A stretch of 64,000 nucleotides of DNA from Candidatus Hydrogenedens sp. (GTDB taxonomy: Bacteria; Hydrogenedentota; Hydrogenedentia; Hydrogenedentales; Hydrogenedentaceae), in assembly GCA_049968235.1 (NCBI GenBank), contig JBMFRC010000003.1, forward strand, positions 192,001 through 256,000, read 5' to 3'. The notes beneath the pieces were generated by a model. It saw only the letters and a program-made list of their open reading frames with translations. It searched no databases and had not been told where the DNA came from. The position numbers and the translations under genes were made by a program. Each line of letters opens with the position of its first letter. Position 1 is the stretch's first letter. This document shows positions 53 to 61,616 of the stretch, in pieces.

Positions 53-121
53 CCTGTCTGTGTTCTCTGTGGTTGATTATATTTTTTTTACCACTGAGGA
101 TACGGAGGTATTTGTTCTATG
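53..121 (+). repeat. Short copy (~65 bp core) of the CTCTGTGG...CACGGAGG palindromic repeat that also occurs at 29707-29770 and, inverted, at about 60740-60800
   Basis: Direct alignment: ttctctgtggttgattatRtttttttMCCACnnGGAnACGGAGG is shared with 29712-29760. It is intergenic and upstream of the DUF89 gene. Confidence 0.5.
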
Positions 122-25096: not shown

Positions 25097-25753
25097 TTGA
25101 GAATACATCAGCATGTAAACCCGCTGAATAAAAAATATCTTGTTGTTCCACCGATGCCCCAATGGTCGAATGTTTATAAGGAACCTTTTCTTCCCCTTCA
25201 TCTTGATTTAGGTTCTGCGAGTGGTAAATTCTTGCTCCAAATGGCACAAAAGAATAGGGATTGGAATTATTTAGGATTGGAGATACGTGAACCGTTGGTA
25301 GAACGAGCCAATCGCTGGAAAGATGAGTTAAGACTTACCAATCTTTACTTCTTTTTTGGGCATACGCATGTTGTTTTACATCCTCTTCTTGAAAGTTTAC
25401 CTGTTGGCGTATTGCACTATGTAAGTATTAACTTTCCAGACCCGTGGTTCAAGAGACGCCACCATAAACGGAGATTGGTTACGCCAGAACTGGTTCAGAT
25501 ATTGGCAAAATATTTACAGCCTGAGGGAAAGGTATTTATTCAAACCGATGTTGAAGAGTTAAGTAAGAATATTTGTGATGCCTTTGTAAATAGTTCTCAT
25601 TTCCGAATTGTAAATACACCGACAGAACAAAATCCTTTTGGTATCCCGACAGAACGAGAAATGTCTGTGGCACGATTAGGTCGTTATATATATAGAACTG
25701 TATTGGAACGGAAAATTGAAATTTTGAAAGAAATCAATCCAAACAACAATTAG
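25097..25753 (+). CDS. trmB: tRNA (guanine46-N7)-methyltransferase
   Basis: LDLGSASGKFLL SAM-binding motif plus VSINFPDPWFKRRHHKRRL. TTG start. Confidence 0.8.
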   Translation: MRIHQHVNPLNKKYLVVPPMPQWSNVYKEPFLPLHLDLGSASGKFLLQMAQKNRDWNYLGLEIREPLVERANRWKDELRLTNLYFFFGHTHVVLHPLLESLPVGVLHYVSINFPDPWFKRRHHKRRLVTPELVQILAKYLQPEGKVFIQTDVEELSKNICDAFVNSSHFRIVNTPTEQNPFGIPTEREMSVARLGRYIYRTVLERKIEILKEINPNNN

Positions 25754-25762
25754 GACATAAAT

Positions 25763-28063
25763 ATGACCATGCGAGGATATTTTATCCCTTTAATTTTTCT
25801 CTTATCCTTTACAGCAATTCTTCCTTCTTTTGCAGGCGAGAAAATTAAATATCAATTAACAATTAAGAGAGTTGGTGATGAAGGGATTGTAAATCCTGGA
25901 ATTGGGACTTTCTACTATGATGCAGGGACCACTGTTTTTCTCAACGCTATTCCGACTGCAGACTGGGCATTTGACCACTGGGAAGGTGCTGTTTCAGGGA
26001 CAGACTTATTTACTCAAGTGCTGATGGACAAACCAAGGACAGTTACCGCTGTTTTTGTACCAGCACAATGGAGGCTGACCATTGAGCATAGTGGGAATGC
26101 TACCGGTACAACTTTCCCTGCTCCCGGGGTCTATGGATTTTTAGATGGTAGAACGGTAGGAGTTAGCTCTGGCACTTCGCCGGGTGTATATTTTGGAGGC
26201 TGGAGGGGTGATGTGATAAGTAATGAAGAATTTGTACAGGTGGTTATGAATTCTGACAAATATATAAATGCACGATTCACGGATACAGGGTATACCCTTA
26301 GTATAAGTGTAATTGGTCCGGGAGGAACAACCCCCTGGCAAGGGACAGTGCATCGGTATTCAGAAGGATTATCTATATCTGTTGTATCTTATTCAACAAA
26401 TCCTTTATGGCGGTTTGACCATTGGGAAGGTGATATAGGCGATAACGAATCACGATATTATATCCTGTTGCAACTAACTATGGACCAGGACCGAAATATC
26501 ACCGCGGTATTCATTGAGAAGCCATATTATAACCTTACATTGGAAATCGTTGGCGAAGGAGGTGTTTCTTTTCAACAGGGCTTTGATGACCCCGTAACTC
26601 TATCCACAGGTATCCATGAATTTAGCATTATTGAGTGGACCTATATTCGATGTGAAAAAATAATCACTTCACCCACATGGAAATTTCTCCACTGGGAAGG
26701 AGATTTTGGTGATACATTGCCTACCTATTATCGATGTGCTTTCTCTATGGACAAAAACCGTTATGTCCGTTGCATTTTTACCAATTTGACACAGGTCCCT
26801 GATGTTATAGGAACACCTCAAAATATCGCAGAAACGACCATTATAAATGGAGATTTGATAGTCGGTAACATTACAGAAATATGTAATGATAATTATGTAT
26901 CAGGATATGTAATAGACCAATATCCACCTGCAGGGACTACTGTAGAAATAGGAAATTCTGTATCACTCTGGGTTTCCACAGGACCTTGTCCTGTATCAGT
27001 GCCAAATCTTATCGGATTAACCATAGAAGAGGCAGAGAATGCAATAAATAGTGCCGGCTTAACGCTGGGTAATGTGATGAACTCGTGTAATGATGAAATT
27101 GGGATGGGAATAGTATTTGGTCAAAATCCATTAGCGGGAGAGCAATTATTCCCCGGTAGTTCTGTAAATATTGAGGTATCTTCAGGACCCTGCCCGGCGG
27201 AAGGGATTATAGAAGGTGAAGGGATGGAGGAAGGTATGCCCGAAGGAGAAGGGACACCCGAAGGAGAGGTATGCGTCTGGATGGGAGCTTGTCCTAACTT
27301 TAGTTATGAAGGAATAAAAATGGGATATTTTGTCGGACAATTATGGAATAACTGCGATATTAATCAATCCGAAATCCCCGATGCATGGGAGATAGAAATT
27401 GTTAAGTATTTGCTGTGCAATCCTCAGGGAATATGGGAGGATAAATTTATTTGTAAATTTATTGAAAATTATAATATTCTGGCAACGGAGTCTTTATTCC
27501 ATACAACTTATTATTCCTTCCGGCATATTTTAACAGGACTTCTTACTATAGGAACCAATATGGATATTTTAAGAAACACTTTCTTTCTAACCAAAAACTA
27601 TTATCCATTTGAATATCCATCGGATAATTTCCCGTTATTGCCGGATGCGGATATTGATAATGATGAATTAACTAATTATGAGGAATACCTCAGGGTAGTC
27701 GAACTTAACGGAAGTAACAATGCATTTATTCGGAACATTTTCAATCCTTCGCCTGTTCCTCCCATTCACTCCGCAGATATAAATCAGAACCATAGAATAG
27801 AGTTGACAGAACTACTTCGCATTATTCAATTCTTTAATTCTTCAGGATTCCACTGTGAAAATGGGACAGAAGATGGTTATGCGCCGGGTTATGACGAGAG
27901 TTTCGATTTTTCATGTGAACAACACACGGCGGATTATTTGCCCCACGATTGGCATATTAGCCTTGAAGAAATTCTAAGGATGGTTCAGTTTTTCAACGCA
28001 GATGGCTATCAGATGTGTCCCTTTATTTCTGAAGATAGTTACTGTCCTATTTTCTCTGAGTAA
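25763..28063 (+). CDS. Secreted multi-repeat protein: four InlB B-repeat-like domains, two PASTA-like domains, an acidic Gly/Glu/Pro linker and a degenerate dockerin-like C-terminus
   Basis: Signal peptide. Repeats of Y.LT....G.G...P..G...Y..G..V.L.A.P...W.F.HWEGD...AVF. Two V.N.IG.T..EA...G...G.....S..P.AG domains each end in SxGPCP. DINQNHRIELTELLRIIQFFN resembles a dockerin. Confidence 0.55.
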   Translation: MTMRGYFIPLIFLLSFTAILPSFAGEKIKYQLTIKRVGDEGIVNPGIGTFYYDAGTTVFLNAIPTADWAFDHWEGAVSGTDLFTQVLMDKPRTVTAVFVPAQWRLTIEHSGNATGTTFPAPGVYGFLDGRTVGVSSGTSPGVYFGGWRGDVISNEEFVQVVMNSDKYINARFTDTGYTLSISVIGPGGTTPWQGTVHRYSEGLSISVVSYSTNPLWRFDHWEGDIGDNESRYYILLQLTMDQDRNITAVFIEKPYYNLTLEIVGEGGVSFQQGFDDPVTLSTGIHEFSIIEWTYIRCEKIITSPTWKFLHWEGDFGDTLPTYYRCAFSMDKNRYVRCIFTNLTQVPDVIGTPQNIAETTIINGDLIVGNITEICNDNYVSGYVIDQYPPAGTTVEIGNSVSLWVSTGPCPVSVPNLIGLTIEEAENAINSAGLTLGNVMNSCNDEIGMGIVFGQNPLAGEQLFPGSSVNIEVSSGPCPAEGIIEGEGMEEGMPEGEGTPEGEVCVWMGACPNFSYEGIKMGYFVGQLWNNCDINQSEIPDAWEIEIVKYLLCNPQGIWEDKFICKFIENYNILATESLFHTTYYSFRHILTGLLTIGTNMDILRNTFFLTKNYYPFEYPSDNFPLLPDADIDNDELTNYEEYLRVVELNGSNNAFIRNIFNPSPVPPIHSADINQNHRIELTELLRIIQFFNSSGFHCENGTEDGYAPGYDESFDFSCEQHTADYLPHDWHISLEEILRMVQFFNADGYQMCPFISEDSYCPIFSE

Positions 28064-28159
28064 TTTTACAAATTGTGAAATAAACGGTTCTTCTTCTACA
28101 ATATCTCATACACATAAGAAAGTAATTCACTTATAACATATCCGTAGAGAACCTTTTTT

Positions 28160-29320
28160 ATGAAGAATAAACTGCTTTTTTTATGCTTATTTATTTCCCT
28201 GATAAATATGCAGTCCGCTATTCACGCGGAAGTGATTTTTGAAAAAGATTTCAAAACAAGTAGTATTCCTGAAACAAAAATTATCCGTTACAGAGTACTA
28301 AGTCATAATGACGAAAAAAAGGGCTATACTTTTTCATTTCTGGGGAAAGTTCTGAAAGGACAGGTTACTATTCAGATTGAAGATACTGAGAAAAACATTA
28401 TTGAAAAAAGGGAAATTCCCGCTTTTTCTTTACTACACTGGCATTTTACATTGTCCGAAGAAAAAGGACTGGATAATATTTATATATCCTTACACCTAAA
28501 GGATATGGTTGGAAATATTTACTCCGTAGTTGTTCCCACTATACAAAGCCAGCAGGTTTACATTGTTCAGGGGATAGTCGTATCTATGAACCTCCTTTTA
28601 TTTTTCGCATGTATATATATCATCAGAAGAAAATCCCTTTATCTCTCATGGTGGGGTTGGGGAATACTGCTTGGGATTTCTGCAAAGGTTCTCTTTTATA
28701 TTGTTGATTATATTGACTTTTTACCCACCACACTATTAATCAATTCTACAACCCTTGAAGATGACCTTTCGGATTATCTTTTCTCTATCTATATCTCTTT
28801 ACGGGAAACGGCTATCCTTTTCTTGATATTAGGCTTCTTCTCAAGCAGGTTATTATCGTTAGAACATAAAAAACAAATGGCTATAAGCATTTCTCTGGGT
28901 ATTGCTCTTATATTCTTAACTTTCACCATTTTTGAGGGAGTATTACGAACATTTCAAATTATGCCATCATTAAATATATCTCCCTATTCCCTGGCTCTCT
29001 TTTCTGTGCAGATAGCACGAACACCCTTTTATTACTTCCTCATTCCATTAAAAAATATAATTCTATTGATATTATGGTTTAGTGCTTTTTATCTAGCACT
29101 ATCCGGTGCAATACAGGCAGAAAGAAGAACGGTAATTCGCGGAATATTAATATTTATCTTCACAGAAGCAGTGCTCGTCTATTTTGAAAATTCCTATTTC
29201 ATCTATCATAACTCCAGTTGGTGGGTTGTAGTTTCGGTATTAGTAATTAGTTTTTTCCCTGTGTTCATTTACAAATTCAAAACGTTTATATACGCCGAAC
29301 CATCTCCCATCAAAAAATAA
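28160..29320 (+). CDS. Membrane protein with an N-terminal periplasmic domain followed by 7-8 TM helices (7TM-DISM-like) and no recognisable output domain
   Basis: Signal peptide, a ~140-aa soluble domain, then multiple hydrophobic helices. Confidence 0.4.
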   Translation: MKNKLLFLCLFISLINMQSAIHAEVIFEKDFKTSSIPETKIIRYRVLSHNDEKKGYTFSFLGKVLKGQVTIQIEDTEKNIIEKREIPAFSLLHWHFTLSEEKGLDNIYISLHLKDMVGNIYSVVVPTIQSQQVYIVQGIVVSMNLLLFFACIYIIRRKSLYLSWWGWGILLGISAKVLFYIVDYIDFLPTTLLINSTTLEDDLSDYLFSIYISLRETAILFLILGFFSSRLLSLEHKKQMAISISLGIALIFLTFTIFEGVLRTFQIMPSLNISPYSLALFSVQIARTPFYYFLIPLKNIILLILWFSAFYLALSGAIQAERRTVIRGILIFIFTEAVLVYFENSYFIYHNSSWWVVVSVLVISFFPVFIYKFKTFIYAEPSPIKK

Positions 29321-29464
29321 ATCATCTTATACCCGACAAATTTCATATGAGACCTCTGAATAAGTCATCCGAGTTAGGTAGTATATAAGAAGGGGATGAG
29401 AGGAAAGATGAAACGAGAAGAGAAACTATTGAGGGTTGAATAACAAAGGAAGGAAAAACTAAAA

Positions 29465-29698
29465 ATGAAGAAAGGTCTACACAGTATGGTAAAAAAGATA
29501 GAGCAAACAAGTTTTATAGATTACAAGATATCCCATCAAAGACAGCCCCGTCGTAGATGCTTTTTGAAACAGATGCAAGAGGTGATACGATGGATGGAAT
29601 TTGAGCAGAGCTGCATAGAGAAAGGAGTATATAAATCGAATGGGCTAGAGCGAAGGCTTCCGTCTTTACTATTTTGTGCATTGTTGAGCAGTGAGTGA
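29465..29698 (+). pseudogene. IS5-family (InsH-like, DUF772) transposase N-terminal fragment, truncated after ~77 codons
   Basis: SFIDYKISHQRQPRRRCFLKQMQEVIRWMEFEQSCIEKGVYKSNGLERRLPS aligns with E. coli InsH [51 protein letters not shown]. There is no DDE domain downstream in any frame. Confidence 0.6.
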
Positions 29699-29699
29699 T

Positions 29700-30047
29700 G
29701 ATTTCTCTGTATTCTCTGTGGTTGATTATGTTTTTTTCCCACCACGGAGGACACGGAGGGTACGGAGAGGCACAGAGAGGCACAGAAAGGCACAGAGAGA
29801 GGAACCTATCATTTCTTGTTAATGACTGCATATAATTTGAAGTGGATGTATGGGGAATTAAGGTTAAAAAGGATCAATATGCATGGATAACCAAAAGATA
29901 GAAAAATTGACATAAAACAGCACATAAAATAGTAAAAGTAGATTTATAGACTTTTGTATTTTAATTTCTTATCAGGATTTTATCTCATAAAAACATATAT
30001 AAGTTATACCCTAACCTCTTACACTAATTGTTAAGAGGTCTCATATG
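29700..30047 (+). repeat. ~350-bp repeat module (right half of the element), present again inverted at 60420-60810
   Basis: By-eye alignment of 29700-30047 against the reverse complement of 60420-60810 gives long runs of identity. The 29.7k copy has about three extra GGCACAGAGA units. Confidence 0.6.
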
Positions 30048-30352
30048 TATTTTATTTCTTCACTCTGCCCTATTATTCAGTACATTGCATATATTGTATC
30101 TGGCTCATTTTTATTCCCTGTTAGTGAGACACTACCAATACTTTTCCATTACAAGCAGAATACCTCTTCGGTACTCCATTTTTCTTGTATGATTGTGGCA
30201 AAGAAGTTCTCTTTTTTGCCTGTGCTGATTGTTAGTTGGCGGTAATAGGGTGGCTATTTTTACTTTTCTTTATTAACTGTAATAAACTATCTTATTATCT
30301 GTGCTTCAATAGAGTAAACAATAACAATAACTTACAAGAAGGAAAGATAACA

Positions 30353-31768
30353 ATGAAAAAGAATGAATGGTCAAAAATGACACGAAGGGCATTTTTAGCC
30401 ACATCCACAACAGTAGTAACAGCGGGTGCTTTTGCACAGACCCCGTCCACCCAGAATACGGCACAGGTTGTTCCCCGTAAGATTTCTCCGAACGAGAAAT
30501 TGAATGTAGCTGCGATTGGTGCTGGTGGGAAAGGACTTTCTGATATTATGAGTTGCTTTAAGTTGGGACACAATGTTGTTGCTCTTTGCGATGTAGATTG
30601 GAAACGGGCTGAAGAGGCATTTTATCGTTTGCCGAAAGCGAAAAAGTATAAAGATTATCGTAATATGTTAGAAGAGATGAAGGAAATTGATGCGGTTACG
30701 ATTTCTACTCCCGACCATTCTCATGCCCCTGCTGCATATATGGCAATGAAGATGGGGAAACATGTATATGTTCAGAAGCCGTTAACGCATACGATTGCAG
30801 AGGCGAGATTGCTTACCCTCACGGCACGCGAGACAGGTGTCGCAACACAAATGGGGAATCAGGGGCATTGTGGTAATGGAGTGCGTCAATTGTGCGAAAT
30901 GATTTGGAGTGGTGCTATCGGTAATGTGAAAGAAGTTCATATATGGACACATCGTCCGGTATGGGATAATCAGGGAATGACAGAGCCATTACCGCCGGAA
31001 GTAACACCCGAAGATATGGACTGGGACCGCTGGATTAACTGTGCACCATGGCGTCCCTATAACCATAAATTGGCTCCGCATGATTGGCGAGCCTGGCAGG
31101 ATTTCGGTTCCGGTTCTCTGGGCGATATGGCTTGCCATATTATGGACCCGGCATACTGGGCGTTGAAATTGTATGAGGCACCGGAATTTTCTGTTGAAGT
31201 GGTCTTTCAGAAGGGACAAAATAGACAAACATTTCCGATTGCAACCACAGTAAAGTATTCCTTTGTGGCACGTGGCGATATGGGACCTGTTGATGTTTAT
31301 TGGTATGATGGACACTGGAAGGATGAAGCCACCGGTCAGGAAATCTATAATCGTCCCAAACGACCCGAAGGAGTGCCGGAGGATGAAGTATTGGGCGATG
31401 ATAATATGAATGGTTCCATGTTTATTGGTGATAAAGGCATTCTTACAGCAGGGGAATATGGTGGAGAACCGCGATTGGTTCCTTCTTCTTTGATGAAGGA
31501 TTATACCCTACCACCGCAAACGATTGAGCGTATCCCGATGGAAAGTCCATATTTTGACTGGCTTCGTGCTTGCAAGGAAGATAAGCCCGCCTGTTCGAAT
31601 TTTAATTACTCCGGTCCCTTCACAGAAATGGTGCAGTTTGGCAATGTCGTCGTCAAATCAGGTCAAAAGTTAATCTGGGACAATATTAACGGTGTTGTTA
31701 AAAATGTATCCGACCCGAAATCAATTATAAGTAAAGAATATCGTAAAGGCTGGGAACTTCCCTGCTAA
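30353..31768 (+). CDS. TAT-secreted Gfo/Idh/MocA family oxidoreductase
   Basis: TAT motif MTRRAFLATS. Rossmann GxGxxG (AAIGAGGKG) with the typical Gfo/Idh/MocA N-terminal NAD domain. The start was taken at the internal ATG (codon 40 of the tracked ORF). Confidence 0.75.
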   Translation: MKKNEWSKMTRRAFLATSTTVVTAGAFAQTPSTQNTAQVVPRKISPNEKLNVAAIGAGGKGLSDIMSCFKLGHNVVALCDVDWKRAEEAFYRLPKAKKYKDYRNMLEEMKEIDAVTISTPDHSHAPAAYMAMKMGKHVYVQKPLTHTIAEARLLTLTARETGVATQMGNQGHCGNGVRQLCEMIWSGAIGNVKEVHIWTHRPVWDNQGMTEPLPPEVTPEDMDWDRWINCAPWRPYNHKLAPHDWRAWQDFGSGSLGDMACHIMDPAYWALKLYEAPEFSVEVVFQKGQNRQTFPIATTVKYSFVARGDMGPVDVYWYDGHWKDEATGQEIYNRPKRPEGVPEDEVLGDDNMNGSMFIGDKGILTAGEYGGEPRLVPSSLMKDYTLPPQTIERIPMESPYFDWLRACKEDKPACSNFNYSGPFTEMVQFGNVVVKSGQKLIWDNINGVVKNVSDPKSIISKEYRKGWELPC

Positions 31769-60419: not shown

Positions 60420-60810
60420 ATCTGTGACCTTTGAACAAGTGGTGTAAGAGGTAATAAGGTAATAGTATAAATTATACAGGAGACCTCTGAACAATTCATG
60501 TAAGAAATTATGGTATAAACTACATATGTTTTTATGAGATAAAATCCCGATGAGAAATTAAAATACAAGAGCCTATATCTCTACATTTACCTATTTTATT
60601 TGTTATTTTCTGTCAGTTCTTCTATTTTCTTATTACCTATGCATACCTCCCCCCTTACTTCCTTAATTCCCATACATCCGATTCAAATTATATGCTGTTA
60701 TTAACAAGAAATGATAGGCTCCTCTCTCTGTGTCTGTCCGTGTCCTCCGTGGTGGGAAAAATGTATTTCGCCACAGAGAACACAGAGACACACGGAGAAA
60801 AGGGAGAAGA
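60420..60810 (-). repeat. Inverted ~350-390-bp copy of the 29700-30047 repeat module, with an extra ~30-bp tandem duplication at the TIR-like end
   Basis: The reverse complement of 60480-60810 aligns with 29700-30047. Motifs gagacctctgaacaattcatgtaag and gtgacctttgaacaagtggtgtaagagg were read directly. Confidence 0.55.
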
Positions 60811-60905
60811 AATCGTTCTACCGCTACCATTCAAATTACATGCGAAGGGAACACAAAGGTTTTTGAAAGAAAGATATAAGTGGAAAATTTAGGTATTGTT
60901 ATGTT

Positions 60906-61616
60906 TTAGATATTTTCCGGGATACAAGCTACTTTTTGTAGTCGTTGAATAAGTATATTTAGGGCATCTTCAACTTCTTTTCGGGTATTTTCAACCTGAT
61001 GTTCGTCTTCTGATGAAGGGGGAGGAATTATAGGTCCAAAACCGACATAAATTTTAGAAAAAGGTTTCGGAACAGGAAAACGGTCCCATGATTTTAGATG
61101 CCAGCACTTATTAACTATAGCCCCCATAGGAACAATGGGTGTTTTTGTTCTTGCAGAAAGAACTGCAATACCGGGTTTTGCAATTCGACGCGGACCTTTG
61201 GGTCCGTCCAATGTCCAGCCTACACACCCCTGATGTTCCAGTGCTTTTTGTAGCCCTTTCAATGCCTCGCTCCCACCGCTGGAACTTGACCCGCGAACAG
61301 CCTCCAATCCGAAACGATGAACAATACGCGAAGCCAATTCTCCATCATAACTATAACTTGTAAGGGTATGGAAATGTGTTGCCTGGAATAAGTAGGCTCC
61401 AAAAGCCATGTGTTCATGCCAGAAAGCGATTAATACTCGTCCTTCCGTTTCCATCGTGTGGTCAACATATTCCTCTTTATCAAATACAGTCCATTCACAG
61501 AGGGTAAAAAGATTTTTTAGAAGAAACGAAATAACAGGAGGAAGAATTGTTAATGCAATTTTTTGTCTTCGTGAAAAAATATAAGGACTGTCGTATGGTA
61601 TTTCAGGCAATCTCAC
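60906..61616 (-). CDS. DUF374 family protein (lysophospholipid acyltransferase-like)
   Basis: GWTLDGPKGPRRIAKPGIAVLSARTKTPIVP (the DGPRGP motif of DUF374). It overlaps panE by 14 nt. Confidence 0.55.
   Translation of the reverse strand: MRLPEIPYDSPYIFSRRQKIALTILPPVISFLLKNLFTLCEWTVFDKEEYVDHTMETEGRVLIAFWHEHMAFGAYLFQATHFHTLTSYSYDGELASRIVHRFGLEAVRGSSSSGGSEALKGLQKALEHQGCVGWTLDGPKGPRRIAKPGIAVLSARTKTPIVPMGAIVNKCWHLKSWDRFPVPKPFSKIYVGFGPIIPPPSSEDEHQVENTRKEVEDALNILIQRLQKVACIPENI

What the first reader, a model, noticed from the sequence alone, without database searches (positions are those of the whole stretch)
29344..30047. TIR-bounded ~700-bp IS5-family remnant (MITE-like) carrying an InsH-type transposase N-terminal fragment
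The sequence CATATGAGACCTCTGAA at 29344-29360 is the near-perfect reverse complement (16/17) of TTAAGAGGTCTCATATG at 30031-30047. This delimits a 704-bp unit. Inside, ORF 29465-29698 encodes ...SFIDYKISHQRQPRRRCFLKQMQEVIRWMEFEQSCIEKGVYKSNGLERRLPS. That sequence aligns residue for residue with the N-terminus of E. coli IS5 transposase InsH ([30 protein letters not shown]...[12 protein letters not shown]) and then stops, with no DDE domain. The rest of the unit is built from GGCACAGAGA tandem units and CTCCGTG/CACGGAG palindromes. This looks like an internally deleted, non-autonomous derivative of an IS5-like element that may still be mobilisable in trans. No clear target-site duplication flanks it (ttt | tat).
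Basis: seen in the sequence. Interest (0 to 1): 0.6.

Follow-up and report, generated by a model that had tools for sequence, protein, structure and literature searches.

The report
Deleted IS5-type jumping gene remnant (MITE)
This is a 694-bp non-autonomous leftover of an IS5-family insertion sequence in a Candidatus Hydrogenedens genome, one of at least seven scattered copies that share the same internal deletion; it is an ordinary kind of bacterial mobile-element debris.

Summary
The core interpretation holds.

- **What it is.** The element proper is 29349-30042 (694 bp). Its ends are GAGACCTCTGAA...TTAAGAGGTCTC, flanked on both sides by ATAT.
- **Origin.** It is an internal-deletion derivative of a ~1363-bp IS5-family insertion sequence. 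Full-length relatives exist in metagenome contigs and in other Hydrogenedens genomes.
- **What was kept and lost.** It keeps the left end, the 5' leader and the first 76 codons. It also keeps the last 28 codons, the 3' trailer and the right end. About 723 bp encoding the DUF772 and DDE domains were replaced by a 114-bp filler, which carries the CTCTGTGG/CCACGGAG hairpin and the 9-10-bp tandem repeats.
- **Copies.** At least six other copies with the same junction lie in unrelated genomic contexts. One is a truncated copy at 60480-60868 in this window. Copies are 75-84% identical to each other. So one deletion derivative was amplified by transposition long ago.

- The ATAT included in the "TIR" is most likely the 4-bp target-site duplication.
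- The 3' third of the unit is IS sequence, not repeats.

No autonomous partner was found in the same genome, so present-day mobility is unproven. This is a new member of a known kind, of low interest.

The parts
29345..29348 (.). Left copy of the probable 4-bp target-site duplication (ATAT)
   Evidence: The same 4 bp flank both ends here and in L002 (ATAT/ATAT), in the full-length IS in L043 (ATAT/ATAT), and in the full-length IS in L135 (ATTT/ATTT, non-palindromic). The L163 right end is flanked by AGAT, so ATAT is not element sequence.
29349..29365 (+). Left terminal inverted repeat, GAGACCTCTGAATAAGT
   Evidence: Conserved at the left ends of copies B and D and, with one change (GAGATC), in full-length IS L043/L008. 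It matches 10 of 12 positions of the IS5-family TIR GAGACCTTTGCA of ISPg1/ISNme1 (PMC4596501).
29366..29464 (+). 5' leader of the parent IS. It carries a 23-bp deletion relative to other copies.
   Evidence: Alignment A4 with L043, L135 and MITE copies.
29465..29698 (+). Remnant of the transposase N-terminus. The ORF is 77 codons; homology to the transposase runs through codon 76 (29692). The stop codon lies in the filler.
   Evidence: BLASTP to P0015: 45/76 identical, E = 4e-28. tblastn: P0015 aa 13-76 = 29501-29692. The fragment ends about where DUF772 (aa 65-138 of P0015) begins, which explains the absence of a Pfam hit. The same frame carries in-frame stops or frameshifts in copies B, D and E.
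29693..29806 (+). 114-bp junction filler replacing about 723 bp of the parent (codons ~77-315). It holds an imperfect hairpin, CTCTGTGG (29714-29721) / CCACGGAG (29742-29749), and 9-10-bp tandem repeats (29743-29799).
   Evidence: No counterpart in full-length IS L043/L008. Present at the same position in every MITE copy, and once alone at window 57-115. TRF result. The fold is not significant, z = -1.44.
29801..29884 (+). Remnant of the last 28 transposase codons (GTYHFLLMTAYNLKWMYGELRLKRINMH)
   Evidence: tblastn: P0015 aa 316-336 = 29801-29863, 81% identity. Translation, compared with the P0015 C-terminus GAYHFLLMAAYNLKRMYGELKREVETYA.
29885..30025 (+). 3' trailer of the parent IS
   Evidence: blastn of the element, numbered from window 29344: positions 464-563 and 608-703 match L043 723-623 and 555-461.
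30026..30042 (-). Right terminal inverted repeat (reverse complement GAGACCTCTTAACAATT)
   Evidence: The right-end family consensus is GAGACCTCTGAACAAGT; this copy has two changes from it.
30043..30046 (.). Right copy of the probable 4-bp target-site duplication (ATAT)
   Evidence: As for 29345-29348.
60480..60868 (-). Second, 5'-truncated copy of the same family. It contains only the long version of the filler, the 3' half and the right TIR.
   Evidence: blastn gives 81.8% identity over 269 bp, E = 2e-68, plus a match to the filler. tblastn matches P0015 aa 316-334. Sequence.
60424..60475 (-). Solo ~52-bp right-end remnant of a third copy, abutting the truncated copy
   Evidence: TIR-core scan and blastn, with 88.9% identity over 36 bp to the L002 right end.

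Best explanation
Window 29349-30042 is a non-autonomous, MITE-like internal-deletion derivative of an IS5-family insertion sequence native to the Candidatus Hydrogenedens lineage.

The parent type is about 1363 bp long and encodes a 343-aa DUF772 + DDE_Tnp_1 transposase. One ancestral copy lost about 723 bp, covering codons ~77-315 and therefore the whole catalytic core. It gained or retained a 114-bp repeat-rich filler at the junction.

That derivative kept both terminal inverted repeats (GAGACCTCTGAAYAAGT). A transposase supplied in trans by a full-length relative could therefore recognise and move it. It inserted at AT-rich tetranucleotides (ATAT, ATTT) with a 4-bp duplication. This produced at least seven copies, which have since diverged to about 80% identity and partly eroded.

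Shown:
- the termini;
- homology of both retained gene ends to a full-length transposase gene;
- the identical junction in all copies;
- the different flanking genes at each copy;
- the equal 4-bp flanks.

Inferred:
- mobilisation in trans as the amplification mechanism;
- the 4-bp stagger;
- that the 77-codon ORF is a non-functional relic.
For: - **TIR.** The inverted repeat is real and non-random.
- **Transposase homology.** The ORF is 59% identical over 76 aa to P0015 (E = 4e-28). An HMM of the copies hits P0015 at 5.7e-29 among 1.84 billion proteins. P0015 has DUF772 (1.5e-22) and DDE_Tnp_1 (1.1e-26), scores 252 bits on NF033581 IS5 family, cutoff 140, and is 29% identical to InsH over 326 aa.
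- **Matching parent elements.** L008 and L043 start with GAGATCTCTGAATAAGT and end with TTCAGAGGTCTC. They align with the window element over IS positions 1-381 and 1105-1363 only.
- **C-terminal codons.** The last 28 codons are recognisable at 29801-29884.
- **Copies in different contexts.** L002 lies between an AhpC-type gene and a methyltransferase gene. L001 lies next to an ABC transporter. L129/L130, L131 and L132/L133 are further loci. Window 60480-60868 and 60424-60475 add two remnants. All copies that reach the junction share it.
- **Age.** All pairs are 75-84% identical, a star-like pattern consistent with one old burst.
- **TSD.** ATAT/ATAT in the window, L002 and L043; ATTT/ATTT in L135; an AGAT flank in L163.
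- **Assembly behaviour.** Contigs break inside the element in two other assemblies (L003, L001), as expected for a repeat.
Against: - No full-length partner was detected in the three assemblies that carry these copies. The named full-length relatives come from other Hydrogenedens MAGs or from unbinned metagenome contigs.
- The closest full-length relative found is only about 67% identical at the DNA level in the shared parts. It is a cousin, not the direct parent.
- ATAT is palindromic, so in three of the four cases with equal flanks it cannot be told apart from an extension of the inverted repeat.
- Flanks are unequal in L129 (ATAT/ATTT), L131, L137 and L059.
- No empty site was recovered.
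Confidence: 0.9

Rival explanations
1. A single IS5-type insertion decayed in place. On this view it is a pseudogenised IS, not a transposed non-autonomous element.
For: The ORF is truncated, the termini are slightly mutated, and no autonomous partner was found in the same assemblies.
Against: The same 5' breakpoint (after codon 76), the same filler and the same 3' breakpoint occur in at least six other loci with unrelated flanking genes. Independent in-place decay would not recreate one junction repeatedly.
Confidence: 0.03
2. The 77-aa ORF is a functional small protein. One possibility is a truncated transposase N-terminus that binds the ends and regulates or inhibits transposition, as shortened transposase products do in some other IS and transposons (comparison from my own knowledge).
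For: The ORF is intact in two copies: the window copy, and L001 as P0002, also 77 aa. Its first 30-40 residues are the best-conserved part of the element.
Against: Copies B, D and E have in-frame stops or frameshifts in the same frame. The fragment stops about where DUF772, the recognisable N-terminal domain, begins. The promoter scan found fewer sigma-70-like sites than in shuffled sequence. The DNA-level conservation there could equally reflect transposase-gene leader sequence.
Confidence: 0.05
3. The unit is a composite. The 114-bp hairpin and tandem-repeat module is an independent small repeat element that inserted into, or recombined with, an IS5-type copy and caused the deletion. The family would then be a chimera of two repeat families.
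For: The module occurs alone at window 57-115, without any flanking IS sequence. The truncated copy at 60480-60868 begins exactly at the module. The module varies in length between copies through insertions and deletions between its CTCTGTG units.
Against: Only one solo copy was seen, in about 64 kb of window plus about 70 kb of related loci. The hairpin is not thermodynamically significant. This rival modifies the origin of the deletion but does not change the identity of the element.
Confidence: 0.3

Closest known systems
E. coli IS5 (transposase InsH) and the IS5 group of the IS5 family (NCBIfam NF033581)
   Same: The parent-type transposase P0015 has DUF772 + DDE_Tnp_1 and scores 252 bits on NF033581, cutoff 140. 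It aligns with InsH over 326 aa. The 4-bp duplication matches the IS5 group; the 4-bp figure is from my own knowledge of ISfinder and was not checked here.
   Different: Identity to InsH is only 29%, and at most 37.5% to any plasmid-borne IS5-family transposase. The target appears to be AT-rich (ATAT/ATTT/AGAT), whereas I recall the IS5 target as YTAR/CTAG (from memory). The window element lacks the transposase core entirely.
BrickBuilt and other IS5-related MITEs of Porphyromonas gingivalis (with ISPg1/ISPg9), and the ISNme1/ATR pair in Neisseria (PMC4596501)
   Same: These are non-autonomous elements bounded by IS5-family-type TIRs. Their GAGACCTTTGCA matches GAGACCTCTGAA here at 10 of 12 positions. 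They carry an internal array of short tandem direct repeats, occur at roughly 10-20 copies per genome, and have short or inconsistent TSDs.
   Different: BrickBuilt keeps no transposase remnant, so it shares only its TIRs with an IS. The Hydrogenedens element retains 76 N-terminal and 28 C-terminal codons plus both untranslated ends, so it is a plain internal-deletion derivative. Its repeat array is tiny, about 6 units of 9-10 bp, against a 23-nt minisatellite in BrickBuilt.
Full-length IS of Candidatus Hydrogenedens genomes (P0015 type in L043/L163; P0032 type in L134/L135 and L136)
   Same: They have the same terminal motif G(A/G)GA(C/T)CTCTGAA, the same leader architecture and the same host lineage.
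   Different: They are autonomous, at about 1335-1363 bp with an intact 336-343-aa transposase. They share only about 67% DNA identity with the window element in the common parts.

Membership tests
IS5 family insertion sequence (autonomous member) | Encodes a DDE transposase with the DUF772 N-terminal domain and the DDE_Tnp_1 catalytic domain | tested here: not met
   The 77-aa ORF has no Pfam hit. Only codons 1-76 and the last 28 codons survive. The window holds no other match to P0015.
IS5 family (derivation from) | Retained coding remnants are homologous to a bona fide IS5-family transposase | tested here: met
   ORF versus P0015: 59% identity over 76 aa, E = 4e-28. HMM E = 5.7e-29. P0015 scores 252 bits on NF033581 against a cutoff of 140.
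IS5 family (derivation from) | Terminal inverted repeats shared with full-length family members | tested here: met
   GAGACCTCTGAATAAGT compared with GAGATCTCTGAATAAGT in L008/L043 and GGGATCTCTGAATAAA in L135. It also resembles the ISPg1/ISNme1 TIR.
IS5 group of the IS5 family | 4-bp target-site duplication | tested here: inconclusive
   Equal 4-bp flanks occur in four elements: ATAT three times and ATTT once. L163 has an AGAT flank. ATAT is palindromic, four other copies have unequal flanks, and no empty site was found.
Bacterial MITE / non-autonomous IS derivative | Short (50-1000 bp), bounded by TIRs, no functional transposase | tested here: met
   The element is 694 bp. TIRs. The catalytic core is absent. 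The size criterion is taken from PMC4596501.
Bacterial MITE / non-autonomous IS derivative | Multiple copies at unrelated loci that descend from one non-autonomous ancestor | tested here: met
   There are six loci (A-F) plus two remnants in the window. The deletion junction is identical and the flanking genes differ.
Bacterial MITE / non-autonomous IS derivative | Mobilised in trans by a transposase of a co-resident autonomous element | not testable with these tools
   The complete genome is not available to the tools. Full-length relatives were found only in other Hydrogenedens MAGs and in metagenome contigs.

The most novel reading that the evidence does not exclude
The 114-bp junction module consists of a CTCTGTGG...CCACGGAGG hairpin followed by 9-10-bp CACGGAGG/CACAGAGAGG tandem units. 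It may be an independent small repeat family of Hydrogenedens genomes. On this reading it promotes deletion or recombination inside IS copies, and MITE copies carrying it act as rearrangement hot spots. The window copy sits exactly where synteny with other Hydrogenedens genomes ends, which fits that idea.
Probability: 0.12. Interest if true: 0.35.

Novelty: new member of a known kind. Interest (0 to 1): 0.2.

Why it matters
The value is mainly practical.

- **Annotation.** It explains a 'hypothetical protein' call that recurs in Candidatus Hydrogenedens MAGs: 46-77-aa ORFs that are really transposase N-terminal relics.
- **Assembly.** It explains why contigs break at these loci.
- **Cataloguing.** It defines the ends, the target preference and a full-length relative of an uncatalogued IS5-type element in a candidate phylum with no cultured representatives.
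- **Genome evolution.** It marks a synteny breakpoint that could be used to study rearrangements in this lineage.

It does not change what is known about how IS5-family elements or MITEs work.

Tried and rejected
- **Direct family scans of the ORF.** Pfam and NCBIfam gave nothing useful. The fragment ends about where DUF772 begins.
- **Direct comparison with InsH.** BLASTP and hhalign were too weak to decide.
- **Plasmid collection.** blastn of the unit found no match.
- **GTDB genomes.** An exact 24-mer from the most conserved part found no match. This species is apparently not among the representatives.
- **Structured RNA.** The Rfam scan of 28800-30600 found nothing.
- **Promoters and terminators.** The scan showed nothing above shuffled expectation. 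No case can be made for an outward promoter.
- **Filler hairpin.** DNA folding was not significant (z = -1.44). I do not call it a functional palindrome.
- **Empty-site search.**
  - Orthologues of the upstream gene in other Hydrogenedens genomes (L004-L007) are followed by a different gene block, so they give no empty site.
  - The two other assemblies of the same population carry the insertion.
- **TA (2-bp) or 5-bp duplication.** I considered both. The non-palindromic ATTT/ATTT around the L135 IS fits only 4 bp. The 5-bp duplications seen around unrelated short elements in metagenomes do not fit this clade.

Full report
**Observation**

CATATGAGACCTCTGAA (29344-29360) and TTAAGAGGTCTCATATG (30031-30047) are 16/17 complementary. 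The repeat finder extends the arms to 29338-29363 and 30028-30053 (26 nt, 85%). The 17-mer with up to three mismatches occurs 3 times in the window against 0.29 expected, and no shuffle reached 3.

ORF 29465-29698 encodes exactly the quoted 77 residues. The tandem units are real but short: period 9 x 2.8 at 29743-29767 and period 10 x 3.5 at 29765-29799.

**Is the InsH similarity real?**

Taken alone it is marginal. hhalign probability is 9%. Pfam and NCBIfam give nothing.

A database search found three related small ORFs, all from Candidatus Hydrogenedens sp. MAGs. A profile of these, searched against 1.84 billion representative proteins, hit the 343-aa protein P0015 over profile positions 1-76 at E = 5.7e-29. 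The window ORF is 59% identical to it over 76 residues (E = 4e-28).

P0015 is a complete IS5-family transposase:
- DUF772 at residues 65-138 and DDE_Tnp_1 at residues 150-328.
- NCBIfam NF033581 'IS5 family transposase', 252 bits against a cutoff of 140.

The window ORF stops about where DUF772 begins. That explains the empty Pfam scan.

**Anatomy against a full-length element**

P0015 is encoded on a 1209-bp metagenome contig (L008) that begins ATGAGATCTCTGAATAAGT. A scan of the metagenome collection with the terminal motif recovered a contig carrying the whole element with both flanks (L043). That element is 1363 bp, GAGATCTCTGAATAAGT...TTGTTCAGAGGTCTC.

| Full-length IS (L043) | Window | Content |
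|---|---|---|
| 1-381 | 29349-29692 | left end, leader, codons 1-76 |
| 382-1104 (723 bp) | 29693-29806 (114 bp, unrelated) | codons ~77-315, i.e. essentially all of DUF772 and DDE, lost and replaced by filler |
| 1105-1363 | 29807-30042 | last codons, trailer, right end |

The region 29801-29884 still translates to GTYHFLLMTAYNLKWMYGELRLKRINMH, against GAYHFLLMAAYNLKRMYGELKREVETYA in P0015.

The unit is therefore an internal-deletion derivative that keeps both ends of the gene. It is not an N-terminal fragment followed by repeats.

**Copies**

The following loci carry the element:
- **A:** the window locus. It is also present in two other assemblies as L003 and L161/L162, and in one of them the contig breaks inside the element.
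- **B:** L002, between an AhpC-type gene and a methyltransferase gene.
- **C:** L001, next to an ABC transporter. The left end is degenerate and the contig ends inside the element.
- **D:** L129/L130.
- **E:** L131.
- **F:** L132/L133, 5'-truncated.
- **G:** window 60480-60868, minus strand. It holds only the filler and the 3' half (81.8% identity over 269 bp, E = 2e-68).
- **H:** window 60424-60475, a solo 52-bp right end abutting G.

Every copy that reaches the junction has the same 5' breakpoint, the same filler and the same 3' breakpoint. All pairs are 75-84% identical. A single deletion derivative was therefore amplified, and the copies then diverged independently. The transposase-derived frame is open in A and C. 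It is interrupted by stops or frameshifts in B, D and E, so it is not maintained as a gene.

**Ends and target duplication**

Several lines place the element end at GAGACC/GGTCTC and point to a 4-bp AT-rich duplication:
- In the window, L002 and the full-length L043, ATAT flanks both ends.
- A second full-length relative lies between cheX and cheW in a Hydrogenedens MAG (L134/L135, transposase P0032, 63% identical to P0015). It ends GGGATCTCTGAA...TTCAGAGGTTTC and is flanked by ATTT on both sides. That is a direct repeat and not an inverted one.
- A further copy of the P0015-type IS (L163) has AGAT after GGTCTC, so ATAT is not element sequence.
- The IS5-family TIRs of ISPg1/ISPg9/ISNme1 and of the BrickBuilt MITE also begin GAGACCTTTGCA (PMC4596501).

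The case is not closed. ATAT is palindromic, several old copies and two more distant relatives have unequal flanks, and I could not recover an empty site.

**Mechanism**

Shown:
- intact 12-bp terminal cores at both ends of the window copy;
- homology to an autonomous element with the same ends;
- multiple dispersed copies of one deletion derivative;
- short equal flanks.

Inferred: a full-length relative supplied transposase in trans, which recognised the ends and inserted the element at A(T/G)(A/T)T sites with a 4-bp stagger.

Whether this can still happen is open. No full-length homologue could be tied to the three assemblies that carry these copies. The named ones are from other Hydrogenedens MAGs, including Ca. 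H. terephthalaticus (L136 at 64% and L137 at 52% identity), or from unbinned contigs. About 20% divergence between copies and several degenerate ends suggest a mostly fossil family.

**The filler**

The 114-bp junction segment contains CTCTGTGG...CCACGGAG and the tandem units. Some copies (C, F, G) carry a longer version. A solo instance lies at window 57-115 with no IS sequence around it. Its predicted fold is no better than shuffled sequence (z = -1.44). It may be an independent small repeat that took part in the original deletion. I give that about 0.3, and it does not alter the identity of the element.

**Context**

The element begins 28 bp after the stop codon of gene 28160-29320. It ends about 310 bp before the likely start (ATG at 30354) of a Gfo/Idh/MocA oxidoreductase gene.

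In four related Hydrogenedens contigs, the upstream genes (methyltransferase, Flg_new/PASTA protein, the 386-aa membrane protein) are syntenic. They are then followed by a PilZ/NAD-kinase-like block that is absent from this window. Synteny therefore ends exactly at the element. This is compatible with a repeat-mediated rearrangement but does not prove one. Rfam and the promoter/terminator scans gave nothing.

**Verdict**

Non-autonomous IS5-family derivatives with internal tandem repeats are well known, for example in Porphyromonas gingivalis. This is a new member of a known kind in a poorly studied candidate phylum. Interest is low (0.2).

Noticed in passing
window 60480-60868 (- strand) and 60424-60475: A second, 5'-truncated copy of the same element family (filler plus 3' half, about 82% identical) lies directly against a solo ~52-bp right-end remnant of a third copy. 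This looks like nested or eroded insertions in the intergenic region after gene 60906-61616.
   Followed up: partly
window 57-115: A solo copy of the hairpin module, TCTGTGTTCTCTGTGGTTGATTATATTTTTTTTACCACTGAGGATACGGAGG. The same module forms the deletion junction in every MITE copy. Here it has no IS sequence on either side.
   Followed up: partly
loci L011, L012, L019, L034, L044, L048, L066, L078, L086, L089, L109, L111 (JGI metagenome contigs): Many unrelated 150-400-bp elements are bounded by GAGAYCTCTGAAAAAGT...ACTTTTTCAGAGRTCTC. One 172-bp element recurs on at least six contigs. At least twelve elements are flanked by perfect 5-bp direct repeats (AGTAT, ATACT, ATTGT, ATTCT, AAAAT, TTTAT, TGTAT). 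This looks like a widespread family of MITEs sharing this IS5-type terminus, but with a 5-bp duplication rather than 4 bp.
   Followed up: partly
window 25145-29320 versus L004-L007: Gene order (methyltransferase, Flg_new/PASTA protein, 386-aa membrane protein) is conserved with other Hydrogenedens genomes at 73-79% amino-acid identity. It stops exactly at the element. The PilZ, NAD-kinase-like, TPR and enoyl-CoA hydratase block that follows in the relatives is not in this window.
   Followed up: partly
L138 1219-1340 (Chloroflexota MAG, OY760183.1): Upstream of a distant IS5-type transposase gene there are four tandem 30-bp units, each beginning (G/C)AGACCT(C/T)TGCA. That is, the terminal motif is repeated in tandem next to the element end.
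   Followed up: no
L003, L001 (contig ends): Two independent short-read assemblies of the same population break their contigs inside copies of this element. The small 'hypothetical protein, partial' calls in these MAGs are artefacts of the repeat.
   Followed up: yes
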